Shown piece by piece: positions 45,601 to 51,600 of a stretch of DNA of 64,000 bases. The DNA comes from Trypanosoma brucei. Its lineage: Eukaryota. Positions within the stretch are counted from its first letter, which is position 1, and the number at the start of each line of letters is the position of its first letter. Where the stretch lies: contig CH464491.1 in assembly GCA_000002445.1 (NCBI GenBank), positions 4,960,001-5,024,000 of the forward strand, written 5' to 3'. Position numbers: made by a program.

Positions 45601-48600
45601 CAGATCCGTCGGAATGAATTAAAATATCCTCGTCACTTACGTTCTGTCTTTCCAAAAAAGTCTATTACCCATCTAGGTCTTTTAAGATGGCTGTACAAAC
45701 CTTTCATCGCAATTGTAATATTTCATAATTTTATTAATTTGACCAAGAATCCTTAATAAGCTAAAATGATACCAAACTCAAAAAAGCAGCATTCATCAGA
45801 GAAAATTTCTTATTTACAAGGAAACTGAAATCCTTGCATTCTTTTCCATCCCATTTGCAGCCATCTTTGCATTCCCCTTAAGTTTTCTTTTTGGTGAACT
45901 TTTTGCCTTCCGCACTTGTTGCTGCAGCTCCCTCCTCTGCTTCGTTTATCTGTCCTTCTCCATCTTTGGGGTTGCATGTTCCATCTGTTTCCGATTTCCC
46001 TTCCAATTTGCAGTTATTGTTTGTGCAGGTCGAGTTCGCGGTATGGGTGGCGCAGGTATCCGCCTTATTTTGTTCCACTTTTCCTTGGATGCCGGCGGTT
46101 TGTTGCGCTGTTTGTGCTATTTCTGGCGCAAAACTGCGTGGGTTTTCTAGAGCTCTGGCACGTGCGGCCAGCACAGCCAATTGTTTACTTCGCTCGTTGA
46201 CGAGGTTGTCATGTTTTTCTCGTGCTTCTAGAGCTGCTGCGAGTTCCTCCATGTCTTTGAGCCATGGGGTTTCCGGGTCTTTAAATATTTCGTGGGGTTT
46301 TTTGTTTGACAATTTGATGCACCTGCCGTTGTTTTGTTTCCCGTTGCAGTTTGTTTGGAACACTCCTAGGTATGTGCTGGTGCCGTCGGTTGTTGCGAGG
46401 CGTGCGATTTTGTTTAGTGCTTGGCGTATCGTGCGGTATGTAGTTTTCTGTTTGTGCTCGTCTGTTATGCATTTGCCTGCGATCTCCCTGGCGGCGTTCT
46501 GATACGGTGCGCCGCTGTTCTGCCACACGTTGGCGGCGGTTTGGCCTTTGAAGCAAATGTCGTCAAATTCGCCGTTCGCTTCTCCTTGGCAGACACAGCT
46601 CATTTTTTTTTTGGAATTTTCTTCGTGCCTTCGTGAGAGTTTCCCCCCACTGGCGCGGCCATCAGCCATCACCGTAGAGCCCTGAGATGCTATCGGTCTG
46701 GCGACTGTGGCAGAGTCTCCCTTTTTATTCATCCTAACACACCCTCTATAATTTTTGTTGTAGCTCCGCAGTTGAACGGAATACAGCAGGTGGGGCGAGA
46801 AGCCCCCCTCACTCCGGACTCTCCAAAAGATGTCAATTAGCAATCCTTTTGTTTTGATTTTTGTTATTCGTTTATTATTCTCTTCCCCTCTTTCTGTTTC
46901 TGTTGCTTGTTGATTGCATACCCCCTCTGTCTCTGAGGGTGTCTGGACTATTCCTGCGTCCGGTGCTTTTCCTGCTAGCTCCACACTCGGTAATAAGGGG
47001 GGAAGTTGCAGAAGGGAGAGTGGGTTGTATGACTGTTACCTTAGGTGAGGACTTCACCTGTGGCCGGCTCCGTTCAACCGCAATGAGAAACTGCGCCAGC
47101 CTTTTAGAGAAACATACATCCTGCACACACTCACCTTCTACCGCAAACCTGACACGTAACTCCTTCAAACCGGGACAGCTCATCAGGTGCAGCGACGTTT
47201 CTTCGCAGTCGCCGCGTTGGCTGGTAACAGCGCGCTCTACCTTCATACCGTGCATCTTCTTTTGATGTAGGGTGAGGCCAGTTTTGCTAGCACACTGCCT
47301 TCCGCATGTCGGGCACACCAACATGGATGTGTTTGTATGCGGGGAATCAGTGGCACACAATTTTGTGCTTTTGCTGCATTTAAGCTCGACTCCCTCACCT
47401 TTGTGGAAAGCCTTACAGTGTCGGATGAGGGAGTCCCTGCAACTGAGCACTTTTTGGCACACACCACACTGCACCTCGCCTTTCCCCGGGACGTCAACGT
47501 TTCCCTCACGGGCACGCTTACGAGGGAATTGCACCAACACCACGGTACCGTCCTCCGTCACTATGCTTTTATGTTTGAATTTCTTGTGTAGTGACAGGGA
47601 AGAACGTGTACCGAAGCTCGCCTCGCACAGGTCACATTGAAACGGCAGCTTCCGTGTATCCTGAGAGGCTGGCGGTGCTGGGGCTCTACCATCTCCTTGC
47701 AATGAGTCTTCGTTCTCTCGTCCCCTTTTCACGCGGCAACTACCGCTACCTATGCCATGTATTGTTCTAAGGTGGTGTAATAGTCGGCCTGGCACTGCGA
47801 ATTTGGAGGCACAGAGGGTACAATGAAGCACCTGCGGTCTCATCGGGACTCGTGTGCTCGATGGTAGAGGAACGATCGCCACCACTGGAGGGGGCTCCGG
47901 GGGGATATCCACTGCAGGTGTTGCATCGCCGTATTTGATCCTCCGGAGGGCATAAGCTCGCACAAAGCCATGTTTGTTTACCATATGCGTTACAGCACTC
48001 GAGCGGCATTGGTATGTGGCATCACATTCCGTACATTTGGTCGGTTCGGAGGTTCTCTGAAGAGTGCGTGTCGCAACAGGTGTGGCCGTTTGTATTGTTG
48101 GCCCTATTGCTGCATGTTGCGGGTTACACCATCGGCACTGTGGAGGCACACTCGGGTTGATCTTTCGCAACATCCATCCANNNNNNNNNNNNNNNNNNNN
48201 NNNNNNNNNNNNNNNNNNNNNNNNNNNNNNNNNNNNNNNNNNNNNNNNNNNNNNNNNNNNNNNNNNNNNNNNNNNNNNNNGGACGACTCTAGACGTTCCT
48301 TCTGTCCGTTTCGATGTCTGCAGATTTTATTAGTGTGCCCGATGTTTCCTGTGCCTGTGCCAGTGTGGCTAACTCGACTGCTGTGTCGGCTATTATGGCT
48401 AGTTCAGCTTTGGCGGCCTGAAGTTGGGCGGCTGATAGGCGCGAGTAGTGCTTTTCGGTGGCTTTTGGCTTCCCAGGAGTGTCCTCGAGGCTTTTAATGC
48501 TTTCGATCCAGTCGTCCCACATTTTGTCCCAGTCAGCCTGTGCTGCGCCTTTTTTTGGCTTTTCTGTCGGCCATTGATCTGGTTTTTTGCTGTCGGCGAA

Positions 48601-51600
48601 TAATTGTTTCCATGAGTTGTCTGCGACGCTCATGTTACGCTTGATTATCTCCTTGTAGTCTGCTGTTTTGGTTGTTAGTGCCGCTGGGATATCTGGTGCG
48701 TTTTGTAACAAGCGCGCTAGCTCGCATAAGGCTCCGAAAACTTAGGTGTTTTGGCCGTTGTGGGCATTTCCGGCCCTGGCTGTTGCTGTAGCAAAAGCAA
48801 TCAGAACACCTATACAAAAATAATTCATATAGTTATGCCTCTCTTCCAGGTGTATTTTGGCGTCTTGCTGTGGGTTGTGTTTGTTAAGGGTGTGGTAAGA
48901 AGATGGAAAGTGGTTTTTAACGATTTTTAGGATTATGCTTATGGCCGAGTCGCATACTTTATTGCACACCTAAGAACAAACGCTACTAGTCAGTTGTGGC
49001 ATTTTTTTGCATTTCTACCACTGCAAAATTTAACAAAAAATGCTCCTATTATTGCTGGCTGTGCTACCTTACTATTTTCGTACCGTTCGCTGCTAATTCT
49101 TACTTTCGAATGTACGCAAGATCTTCTCTGTGGATTCTGTATATGCGTGTTTCTAGACCTCTGGTATTCTTTTTAACACCGCTAGTGCACGATAAGCAAT
49201 GCACAGTACAAACCTCAGTATATGTTTAACTCATTGACGCATAAAACACGATTTCGTTTCTGACTTTCTGTCCTTGTGCAATTATTTTGCCTGCTTACTA
49301 GTTTTTCTCTGTGCTTTCTTAAAAGCTCATGAGTTAATGGCGATTCTATTCGTGAAAAAGTCTCTACCGATAAGCTGGAGTCCGCTTTATTTCCTTAGGT
49401 AGTTTGTTTTCCCAATTTTGGCTTTATTTTCGTGTACTTTTCACCTTTAGATTTCAATCCAAACGATGTTTTTGCCTCCACACAGTTGCACTCCTATCGA
49501 GTTCTTTGTCACTTAAAGATACAAAAGCCTCTAATGGAATTGAATGCTTATGAGAAATATCTGGAGCTTGGTGGGCTCTGACTTCTAGATTGGATCCACC
49601 AGGGTTGTATAGTTAGCTTGTTTCAAATCCACCAAATCATACATTTACGATTGCTTGTAACACTTTTGTATATTTAAGACTATAAAACATGATTTTCTTT
49701 TTTTTATATAGTAGCTCTGAAAAAGAAACTCGGCGTATTAATGCCAGTAAATATCTCCGTTTCTATACCTTGTGGTGCAGTAGAGGTTATATTACTTTAT
49801 TATTTTAAGGTGTTCTTTCGCTTGTTGCTAAATAATCAAAATTTACTGCTATTGTGGGTTTTTGTCACATATTTTTGTGCAAGCATCAGATGTTTGTATT
49901 AGATATACTTTCTTACTTCGATAATTTGAACCACAAAAAGTACTTTTATATGAGTTTCATGGCCTTTATCACTTTAATTATTTGTTACAGATTGATTTAC
50001 ATTCATTATAGCGCCTTGTATTTAAATTATACATTACTCGATGAGTTACTTCGAGCATATAAGCCGTGCCACACCTTTTCACATTCCACTTTATATAACC
50101 GTTTTTTCGTGGTATATTGATTTTATCTCCTCTACAAACTGGACTTTGTATCTCCCTCATTACCCACTTCGTCATCTCTTTGTGTATAATGATACCCGGC
50201 GTAATGTTTTGTGTTTGAAGTTTCATATCTTCTACATACCCCTCTAACTTTCTCTCCTTCTTTTCATAATATTCCTTGTGCTCTCAATCTATCATAATAA
50301 CATACTTACACTTACTCTCGTTAAACACACTTGTTATTGTTTAAAGTTCTTTAAGTTTTGCTTTCTAATCGCTCTGCTACATTGCTCATTTTATAATATT
50401 CGTATATACACACTCACAATACCCTCTTATTATTATTATCATTATTACTATTATTATTATTATTACTGCTCTCATTATAATATTCGTATATACACACTCC
50501 TAATGCTTTCTTTTAATTACTATTACTTTATTACTATATGACTATAATCTTAACTATTATCCAAAAAACAATATAAACTAAATTATAACATTTCTTAATA
50601 TTACTCATTTTCATACGCTATGACTCTACTACGTTAGTCCCATAAGCCACACTCACACCAAATTCTAATAATTTTAACATTTTCATAAAAAGGTGTTAAA
50701 GTGTATTAAATTTTATGAAAATTAATGAAGTTTATAAAATTCTATGGAAATTCTTATAGTGCTACCAAACTCATAAAACCAGCAGCTATCAGAGCCAATT
50801 TCTTATTGAGGAGAAAACTGAAATCCTGACATTTGCCTTCAATCCAACCACAAACATATTTCTTTTCCTCCTTTGGTTTTCCTGCCACCTTGGCGCATTG
50901 TTCTAAGTCCGTACACTGGCTGCAGTTAGGGCATGTTCTCTCTGCAGCTCCCTCTCCTGTTTCTGCTGCATTTGCTTATCCTTCCCCCTCTTTAGGTTTG
51001 CATGTTCCATCTGTTTCAGTTTTTCCTTCCCATTTGCAGCTGCTGTCTGCTGTGCAGGTCGCGTTTGATTTGTGACTGTCGCAGATAGGTGGATTTGCAA
51101 TTGGATTTGGACTTTTTGTGGCATAAATTTTGGCTGCTGCTGTTCTATTAAAAACAAGTTCAACTTGGCCTCTAAGGGCTTTGATGGTTGCCTCCGTCCT
51201 TCGCTTTTCCTGATGTGCATGGTCCGCTTTTTTCAGTTTTTCAACTGCGTCCAGCAGATGTTGTTCCCAGGCTATGGCTGTCGCTGCGGCGCTTGATGTT
51301 AAAGGGTATGCCTTTGTGAAGTCGGCGCAGGCCGATGCTGCTCGATCATCGCAGTGCTGGCTGCCGCTATGGCTCCCTAGATGTATCATATCGCCGGCAT
51401 TGTCCGTCCGAGTTTTGAGCATACCGAACAGCTGACCAAGCTTTTGGAATATGAACTCCGATGTCACTTTGGCGTTGGTATGTTTTTTGCATATGGCATC
51501 TAGGCCGGCGTACTGAGCCGGGGCATCCGTCGGCGATGTCCAGGTTAGCGTCGGCGTTACTGCGTTACCGCAGATGTCGGTCGTTGCTGTCCCGCCATCT

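What the first reader, a model, noticed from the sequence alone, without database searches (positions are those of the whole stretch)
45761..48830. VSG apparently split by a poly-A-tailed retroelement encoding a multi-C2H2 zinc-finger ORF
A VSG N-terminal fragment (48289-48830) and a VSG C-terminal fragment with an intact GPI signal (45761-46602) lie on the - strand, in the same orientation, flanking a non-VSG block of about 1.6 kb plus a gap. That block contains an ORF with at least 5 C2H2 zinc fingers (46875-48173), a stop, about 260 nt of untranslated sequence, and an A11 tract (46603-46613) abutting the VSG sequence. This is the architecture of a 5'-truncated, poly-A-terminated non-LTR retroposon insertion (ingi/L1Tc-type ORFs end in C2H2 fingers). 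The 100-N gap at 48181-48280 hides the 5' junction. Such an insertion would create paired 5' and 3' VSG donor fragments.
Basis: partly seen in the sequence, partly recalled or inferred. Interest (0 to 1): 0.7.

Follow-up and report, generated by a model that had tools for sequence, protein, structure and literature searches.

The report
Ingi retroposon inside a VSG pseudogene
A silent surface-coat (VSG) pseudogene of Trypanosoma brucei is interrupted by a copy of the common ingi retroposon whose front part is hidden by an assembly gap; this is an ordinary, already catalogued feature.

Summary
On the minus strand the order is: 182 codons of a VSG N-terminal domain (48828->48281), a 100-N gap, a 434-codon open frame with exactly five C2H2 fingers (48179->46878), a 262-nt untranslated tail, A10, and 280 codons of VSG C-terminal sequence (46603->45764).

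The block is Tbingi, the standard T. brucei non-LTR retroposon.
- Four published RIME primers match its tail exactly and in order.
- Eight printed stretches from other TREU927 ingi copies align at 93.5-98% identity.
- The ORF's specific protein relatives are named 'Tbingi protein' in T. theileri, T. grayi and T. cruzi.
- One relative carries endonuclease, reverse-transcriptase and RNase H domains upstream of the matching region.

A published table lists this copy: NT_165288 5006603-5008180, minus strand, ingi positions 3677-5256, preceded by 100 N. That places the window on TREU927 chromosome 11.

Both VSG pieces align colinearly to the same VSG relatives, with 46-47 residues missing between them, so one VSG was split. 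It also carries three in-frame stops.

The '5'-truncated' claim cannot be shown, because the truncation seen is the assembly gap. The tract is A10, not A11. Already known; low interest.

The parts
50375..50505 (-). 70-bp repeat unit(s) upstream of the VSG cassette (context)
   Evidence: Read directly: GAGTGTGTATATACGAATATTATAATGAG, then (TAA)n, then the same unit again. Tandem Repeats Finder reports the TTA run at 50427-50465. The coordinates are approximate.
48281..48828 (-). VSG pseudogene, N-terminal part (182 codons; in-frame TAA 48744-48742 and TAG 48291-48289)
   Evidence: Pfam VSG_B profile positions 2-153, E 7e-24. 80% identical to residues 46-224 of the VSG relative P0003. Alignment.
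48181..48280 (.). 100-N assembly gap hiding the rest of the ingi, its 5' junction and about 44-47 VSG codons
   Evidence: The same gap is recorded as 100 N upstream of this element in the published TREU927 table.
46875..48180 (-). 3' third of the ingi ORF (434 codons plus stop): C-terminal domain with five C2H2 fingers
   Evidence: ORF. Five CX2CX12HX4H motifs. Pfam zf-C2H2_4, E 1.4e-8. Relatives named 'Tbingi protein'. Aligns to the C-terminal region (residues 1285-1367) of P0137, a protein with endonuclease, RT and RNase H domains. Six printed 100-nt stretches of other ingi copies align here at 93.5-98% identity.
46613..46874 (-). ingi 3' untranslated region, equal to the 3' half of RIME
   Evidence: Published RIME-LAMP primers B3, BIP-B2, LBm and BIP-B1c match exactly, in order, at 46624-46723. 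FIP-F1c has 2 mismatches and FIP-F2 has 3. F3 has no specific match. 98% identical to another chromosome 11 ingi tail.
46603..46612 (-). poly(A) tail (A10; the last A may belong to the target)
46592..46603 (-). candidate 3' copy of the 12-bp target-site duplication (ATGAGCTGTGTC)
   Evidence: Position only. T at positions 2 and 7 fits two of the three T positions of the published ingi4 pattern xTxTxxTxxxxx. No second copy is visible in the window. Inferred.
45761..46603 (-). VSG pseudogene, C-terminal part (280 codons plus stop; in-frame TAA 45883-45881; GPI-signal end)
   Evidence: Pfam VSG_B positions 206-350 (E 1e-24) and Trypan_glycop_C (E 3e-20). 75.5% identical to P0003 residues 272-510.

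Best explanation
This is a copy of Tbingi inserted by target-primed reverse transcription into the coding region of a silent array VSG, in the same orientation as the VSG. Tbingi is the 5.25-kb autonomous non-LTR retroposon of T. brucei, in the ingi/L1Tc clade. The locus is most probably TREU927 chromosome 11, about 5.007 Mb.

What is visible is the last 1,578 bp of the element: the C-terminal C2H2 nucleic-acid-binding domain of the single ingi ORF, the RIME-type 3' UTR and a short poly(A) tail that abuts the VSG sequence ATGAGCTGTG.

The rest of the element, its 5' junction, the 5' target-site duplication and about 132-141 nt of VSG lie in a placeholder assembly gap. Such gaps are expected where a dispersed repeat breaks an assembly.

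The VSG is a pseudogene with three in-frame stops. Its two pieces stay in the silent archive.

Shown: the identity of the element, its 3' junction, and that both VSG pieces belong to one VSG lineage. Inferred: the insertion mechanism, the full length of the element, and the order of insertion versus VSG decay.
For: - RIME/ingi 3' end. Four published RIME primers match exactly and in order, and two more match with 2-3 mismatches.
- Nucleotide identity to the family. Eight 100-nt stretches of other TREU927 ingi copies, printed in the supplement of PMC4660242, align colinearly at 93.5-98% identity. Two of them extend 7 nt beyond the gap edge.
- Published listing. The same supplement has the row NT_165288 5006603-5008180, minus strand, Repbase INGI positions 3677-5256, E 0, 3' end complete, 100 N upstream, chromosome 11, 'Partial INGI'. 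This equals window 46603-48180 at an offset of exactly 4,960,000.
- Protein level. Relatives are named 'Tbingi protein' in T. theileri (34% identity, E 5e-37), T. grayi and T. cruzi. P0137 has Exo_endo_phos, RVT_1 and RNase_H upstream of the region matching this ORF. P0017 has the end of an RNase H domain just before it.
- Geometry. A 262-nt UTR fits a 5.25-kb element with a 4,971-bp ORF flanked by RIME halves (PMC3447711).
- One VSG. P0003, P0004, P0005, P0006 and P0009 each align to both pieces, colinearly, with 46-47 residues missing between them. A 70-bp repeat lies upstream, as in a normal cassette.
- Base composition. AT skew changes at 46600 and at the gap.
Against: - The 5' junction, the 5' target-site duplication, the Pr77/RIME-A 5' end and the endonuclease, RT and RNase H domains are not visible, so neither a simple insertion nor a full-length element is proven.
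- About 44-47 VSG codons are unaccounted for.
- The join across the gap is a scaffold join.
- The candidate target-site duplication matches only two of the three T positions of the published pattern.
- The window's identity with NT_165288 is inferred from coinciding coordinates, not from a sequence comparison.
Confidence: 0.9

Rival explanations
1. One reading: a 5'-truncated ingi insertion whose 5' end lies within a gap of roughly the nominal 100 bp, accompanied by deletion of about 130-140 bp of VSG target DNA.
For: The published TREU927 table contains partial ingi copies whose 5' ends abut non-ingi sequence, for example chromosome 2 at element position 3688 and chromosome 5 at 2465. About 44-47 VSG codons are missing between the pieces. 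A target deletion would explain that.
Against: The visible truncation point is simply the gap edge. Other copies continue with GACACTA/GATACTA exactly where this one is cut off. 100 N is a placeholder used twice in this window. Several other TREU927 ingi copies are likewise cut by 100-N gaps or contig ends.
Confidence: 0.25
2. The two VSG pieces are not halves of one gene. They would be two paralogues brought together by the scaffold join, or by ectopic recombination between two ingi copies.
For: The join at 48181-48280 is unsequenced. This VSG family has several members at 60-80% identity. Published work states that ingi and RIME sequences recombine and cause rearrangements (PMC2854126).
Against: The pieces have the same strand and the correct order. 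Both align to the same five relatives at similar identity, leaving the same 46-47-residue hole with no overlap. The N-terminal piece has a normal upstream cassette with a 70-bp repeat.
Confidence: 0.07
3. The zinc-finger ORF is a cellular multi-C2H2 gene or gene fragment, not a mobile element.
For: Most of the 618 hits in the representative search are generic multi-finger proteins matched through the fingers alone.
Against: All hits that cover the non-finger parts and carry a name are trypanosome proteins, most of them named 'Tbingi protein'. The ORF is followed by the RIME 3' half and poly(A). The DNA is 93.5-98% identical to dispersed ingi copies on six chromosomes.
Confidence: 0.01
4. The block is a degenerate relic (DIRE) or a short non-autonomous RIME rather than an ingi.
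For: Only the 3' third is visible, and degenerate elements are common in trypanosomatid genomes (PMC5814959).
Against: There are 434 codons without a stop or frameshift, and identity to other ingi copies is 93.5-98%. RIME is described as non-coding, whereas this block has 1.3 kb of coding sequence, and RIME primer F3 has no specific match.
Confidence: 0.02

Closest known systems
Tbingi (T. brucei ingi, ingi4 subclade of the ingi/L1Tc clade of non-LTR retroposons)
   Same: It has the RIME-type 3' end, the poly(A) tail and a C-terminal multi-C2H2 domain. It is 93.5-98% identical at the nucleotide level to other genomic copies. This very copy is listed as 'Partial INGI' in a published TREU927 survey.
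   Different: Nothing differs in kind. Only the last 30% (ingi positions about 3677-5256) is present in the assembly.
L1Tc of T. cruzi (C2-L1Tc C-terminal domain, a nucleic-acid chaperone)
   Same: It belongs to the same clade, has the same domain order and ends in C2H2 fingers with basic stretches. By analogy, this domain would bind and chaperone nucleic acids during retrotransposition (PMC5814959).
   Different: L1Tc is described as having two C2H2 motifs, whereas this ORF has five. Only short T. cruzi fragments matched, at about 37% identity. Chaperone activity has not been tested here for ingi.
RIME (the non-autonomous partner of ingi)
   Same: The last roughly 250 nt are the RIME 3' half, with exact primer matches.
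   Different: RIME is a short element without coding capacity. This block carries 1.3 kb of ingi ORF, and the RIME 5'-half primer F3 has no specific match.
5'-truncated LINE-1 insertions of mammals
   Same: Both are poly(A)-ended, inserted by target-primed reverse transcription, and able to disrupt genes.
   Different: In this copy the apparent truncation is an assembly gap, not a demonstrated biological 5' truncation.

Membership tests
Tbingi / ingi-L1Tc clade non-LTR retroposon | 3' end formed by the 3' half of RIME | tested here: met
   RIME-LAMP primers B3, BIP-B2, LBm and BIP-B1c match exactly and in order at 46624-46723. 98% identical to another ingi tail.
Tbingi / ingi-L1Tc clade non-LTR retroposon | Poly(A) tail at the 3' end | tested here: met
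   A10 at 46612->46603, abutting VSG sequence.
Tbingi / ingi-L1Tc clade non-LTR retroposon | C-terminal C2H2 zinc-finger domain homologous to ingi-clade ORFs | tested here: met
   Five fingers. Relatives named 'Tbingi protein' in T. theileri, T. grayi and T. cruzi. Aligns to the C-terminal region (residues 1285-1367) of P0137, which has endonuclease, RT and RNase H domains.
Tbingi / ingi-L1Tc clade non-LTR retroposon | High nucleotide identity to the Tbingi reference and to other genomic copies | tested here: met
   93.5-98% identity over eight 100-nt stretches from copies on chromosomes 3, 5, 6, 8, 9 and 11. Published BLAST row with E 0 for ingi positions 3677-5256.
Tbingi / ingi-L1Tc clade non-LTR retroposon | AP-endonuclease, reverse-transcriptase and RNase H domains in the same long ORF | not testable with these tools
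   This part of the element would lie in the 100-N gap. The frame is open right up to the gap edge.
Tbingi / ingi-L1Tc clade non-LTR retroposon | 5' end with the 77-79-nt signature (Pr77) / RIME 5' half | not testable with these tools
   Hidden by the gap. The RIME 5'-half primer F3 has no specific match in the window.
Tbingi / ingi-L1Tc clade non-LTR retroposon | 12-bp target-site duplication flanking the element | not testable with these tools
   The 3' flank ATGAGCTGTGTC is identified, but no second copy is visible. The 2-mismatch matches elsewhere are at chance level. The 5' junction is in the gap.
Tbingi / ingi-L1Tc clade non-LTR retroposon | Conserved ingi4 insertion pattern AxxxxxxxTxxxGTxGGxTxxx^xTxTxxTxxxxx | tested here: inconclusive
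   Pattern taken from PMC3820030. The duplicated part matches T2 and T7 but not T4. The upstream 22 nt are in the gap.
VSG (T. brucei variant surface glycoprotein), array pseudogene | VSG N-terminal domain, C-terminal domain and GPI-signal end, colinear with known VSGs | tested here: met
   Pfam VSG_B positions 2-153 and 206-350 plus Trypan_glycop_C. 70-80% identical to T. brucei VSGs, colinear.
VSG (T. brucei variant surface glycoprotein), array pseudogene | An intact reading frame (needed for a functional VSG) | tested here: not met
   Three in-frame stops (48744-48742, 48291-48289, 45883-45881) plus the insertion. It is therefore a pseudogene.
DIRE (degenerate ingi/L1Tc-related element) | Coding capacity destroyed by accumulated mutations | tested here: not met
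   The visible 434 codons have no stop or frameshift, and identity to other copies is 93.5-98%. The hidden part is unknown.

The most novel reading that the evidence does not exclude
The hidden part may be a full-length ingi that is still coding. Its landing site, just before the conserved ...TLLAA|MSCVCQGE motif of this VSG subfamily, could reflect the sequence preference of the ingi endonuclease (GTxGGxT could be encoded by LLAA). In that case ingi would repeatedly cut this VSG lineage at one place and supply matched 5' and 3' donor pieces for mosaic VSG formation.
Probability: 0.05. Interest if true: 0.35.

Novelty: already known. Interest (0 to 1): 0.08.

Why it matters
It matters little beyond annotation. 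Ingi elements are known to be dispersed through the T. brucei genome, including the subtelomeric VSG arrays (PMC3553974). About 85% of array VSGs are pseudogenes (same paper). This copy is already in a published table.

There are two practical lessons.
- The apparent 5' truncation is an assembly artefact of a dispersed repeat.
- A mechanical ORF caller can produce a chimeric ingi-UTR/VSG ORF at this locus.

Tried and rejected
- Exact-protein look-ups of the ingi ORF piece and of two versions of the VSG N-terminal ORF found nothing. The aim was to find contigs that cross the gap.
- The word-indexed protein search found only two T. theileri relatives of the zinc-finger ORF and no T. brucei ingi proteins. 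Nucleotide-level identity was therefore established from primer sequences and from sequence strings printed in a paper's supplement.
- The T. theileri locus of the best relative is itself riddled with N runs. It gave only weak endonuclease (E 0.003) and RNase H (E 0.058) signals upstream.
- No other ingi copy exists in the window.
- No second copy of the 12-mer flank is visible.
- There were no Rfam hits in the window.
- The Marcello & Barry VSG-archive paper could not be fetched under the id I tried.
- Rejected readings: a cellular zinc-finger gene, RIME alone, and DIRE. See the rival explanations.
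Full report
**What is there.**
Everything below is read on the minus strand.

- An ATG at 48828 opens a VSG N-terminal domain. It matches Pfam VSG_B profile positions 2-153 (E 7e-24). It runs for 182 codons to the gap edge at 48281. It has in-frame stops at 48744-48742 (TAA) and 48291-48289 (TAG).
- A run of exactly 100 N follows (48181-48280). An identical run lies at 17083-17182, so this is a placeholder convention.
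- From the other gap edge a frame stays open for 434 codons (48179->46878), with the stop at 46877-46875. It holds exactly five CX2CX12HX4H motifs. Pfam zf-C2H2_4 scores E 1.4e-8.
- Immediately after that, VSG sequence resumes for 280 codons (46603->45764). It matches VSG_B positions 206-350 and Trypan_glycop_C. It has one in-frame TAA (45883-45881) before the GPI-signal end.
- AT skew changes sharply at 46600 and at the gap, which marks the foreign block.

**What the block is.**
Three independent lines identify it as Tbingi.

1. *Published RIME primers.* The RIME-LAMP primers (PMC6324077, Table 1) map to the untranslated tail in the right order and orientation.
   - B3, BIP-B2, LBm and BIP-B1c match exactly at 46624-46723.
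   - FIP-F1c has 2 mismatches and FIP-F2 has 3.
   - F3 has no specific match.
   - This fits an ingi, in which the two RIME halves sit at opposite ends of a 5.25-kb element (PMC3447711), if F3 lies in the RIME 5' half.
2. *A published genome survey.* Supplement 1 of PMC4660242 tabulates a BLAST of the Repbase INGI sequence against the TREU927 genome.
   - It prints 100-nt strings, some of which are internal ingi sequence from other copies.
   - Eight of these, from chromosomes 3, 5, 6, 8, 9 and 11, align colinearly to 46620-48180 at 93.5-98% identity.
   - The same table has the row 'NT_165288 5006603 5008180, element 3677-5256, strand m, E 0, 5' end truncated, 3' end ok, 5' flank = 100 N, chromosome 11, Partial INGI'.
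   - The window element is 46603-48180, minus strand, preceded by 100 N. Both ends agree at an offset of exactly 4,960,000.
   - So the window is very probably TREU927 chromosome 11, positions 4,960,001-5,024,000, and this copy is already catalogued.
3. *Protein relatives.*
   - The word-indexed search found two T. theileri proteins named 'Tbingi protein' (34% identity, E 5e-37).
   - In the exhaustive search, most of the 618 hits are generic finger proteins.
   - The hits that cover non-finger parts and carry a name are all trypanosome proteins. Most are named 'Tbingi protein', from T. grayi, T. theileri and T. cruzi.
   - P0017 (T. grayi) has the end of an RNase H domain just before the part that aligns to residues 1-159 of this ORF.
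   - P0137 (1,473 aa) has Exo_endo_phos at 15-215, RVT_1 at 495-720 and RNase_H at 933-1069, and aligns to residues 287-369 of this ORF at its positions 1285-1367.
   - The ORF is therefore the C-terminal domain of an endonuclease/RT/RNase H polyprotein, as described for the clade (PMC5814959).

**Is it one VSG?**
A search with the two pieces joined found T. brucei VSGs at 61-73% identity over the best local alignment to the joined query. Five of them (P0003, P0004, P0005, P0006, P0009) align to both pieces in the right order, with no overlap and always with 46-47 residues missing between them.

- For P0003, the N piece aligns to residues 46-224 (80% identity) and the C piece to residues 272-510 (75.5%).
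- The relatives all read ...TL(L/A)AAMSC... at the point where the C piece begins. The last A of the A-run is therefore probably the A of that Met codon.
- A 70-bp repeat lies about 1.6 kb upstream (about 50375-50505), as in a normal silent VSG cassette.

The simplest reading is one VSG split by one insertion.

**What the gap hides.**
At one gap edge the sequence is still VSG, and at the other it is still ingi. Two printed copies continue with GACACTA/GATACTA exactly where this one is cut off. At least 44 VSG codons (about 132 nt) are unaccounted for, which exceeds the nominal 100 N.

So either the gap is longer than written or target DNA was deleted on insertion. A longer gap is the likelier case, because TREU927 has several ingi copies cut by 100-N gaps or contig ends. 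I give it about one chance in four.

**Mechanism.**
These steps are inferred from established knowledge of the clade.

1. The ingi endonuclease nicks the target.
2. The poly(A) end of the RNA primes reverse transcription.
3. A second nick 12 bp away gives a 12-bp duplication (PMC3820030).

The 3' flank ATGAGCTGTGTC fits T2 and T7, but not T4, of the published ingi4 pattern xTxTxxTxxxxx. That is weak evidence, and the upstream part of the pattern is hidden. No second copy of the 12-mer is visible in the window.

**Comparison and verdict.**
Every membership feature that can be seen is met. These are the RIME 3' half, the poly(A) tail, the C-terminal C2H2 domain and the nucleotide identity to other copies. 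The features at the 5' end cannot be tested.

- It is not a DIRE, because the frame is open and identity to other copies is high.
- It is not a RIME, because it is coding.
- It is not a cellular finger gene.

Ingi elements within VSG arrays are established knowledge (PMC3553974; PMC4660242), as is the predominance of VSG pseudogenes. The finding is correct, ordinary and already catalogued.

Noticed in passing
window 1-64000: Coordinates in a published table imply that the window is T. brucei TREU927 chromosome 11 (NT_165288), positions 4,960,001-5,024,000. This is a subtelomeric array of mostly minus-strand VSG genes and pseudogenes. tblastn hits lie near 19822-21390, 23758-24798, 27612-28874, 34787-35782, 43136-44427, 50757-52280, 55132-55476 and 61597-62169.
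   Followed up: partly
window 45878-46984 (- strand): A mechanical 368-codon ORF starts with GTG inside the ingi ORF in another frame. It runs through the ingi UTR and the poly(A) tract (read as KKK) and continues in frame into the VSG C-terminal piece. It is a chance chimeric frame that a gene caller could report as a protein.
   Followed up: no
window 15759-17182: A second 100-N gap (17083-17182) lies about 110 nt downstream of an apparently intact 514-codon VSG ORF (17290-18834, - strand). Seven single N bases are scattered over 16419-16831 in a low-complexity stretch that is proline- and serine-rich in translation.
   Followed up: no
window 45000-45760: The conserved VSG 3'-UTR 16-mer TGATATATTTTAACAC is not found within 2 mismatches downstream of this split VSG. 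An exact copy follows another VSG at 55047-55062, and one-mismatch copies lie at 43011-43026 and 54186-54201.
   Followed up: no
window 23048-23210, 50375-50505, 53817-54037: 70-bp-repeat-type units (TGTGAGTGTGTATATACGAATATTATAA plus TAA/TAT runs) lie upstream of several VSG cassettes. Each array has only about 1.5-2 units.
   Followed up: no
window 48831-48963 (- strand): The first 45 residues of the database protein P0003 are a translated 5' leader. They align to the region just upstream of this VSG's ATG, so the upstream non-coding region is conserved between these VSG relatives.
   Followed up: no
published table (PMC4660242, supplement 1), not the window: Other TREU927 partial ingi rows begin at almost the same element coordinate as this one (3677). 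Chromosome 9 begins at 3672, six bases from a contig end. Chromosome 2 begins at 3688, next to other sequence. This may reflect a recurrent assembly break or a subfamily breakpoint.
   Followed up: no
L001 239-9394 (T. theileri NBCO01000002.1): The T. theileri locus holding the closest protein relative is also broken by five N runs of 445-1,719 nt within and around the element. Ingi-type repeats break assemblies in that genome too.
   Followed up: partly
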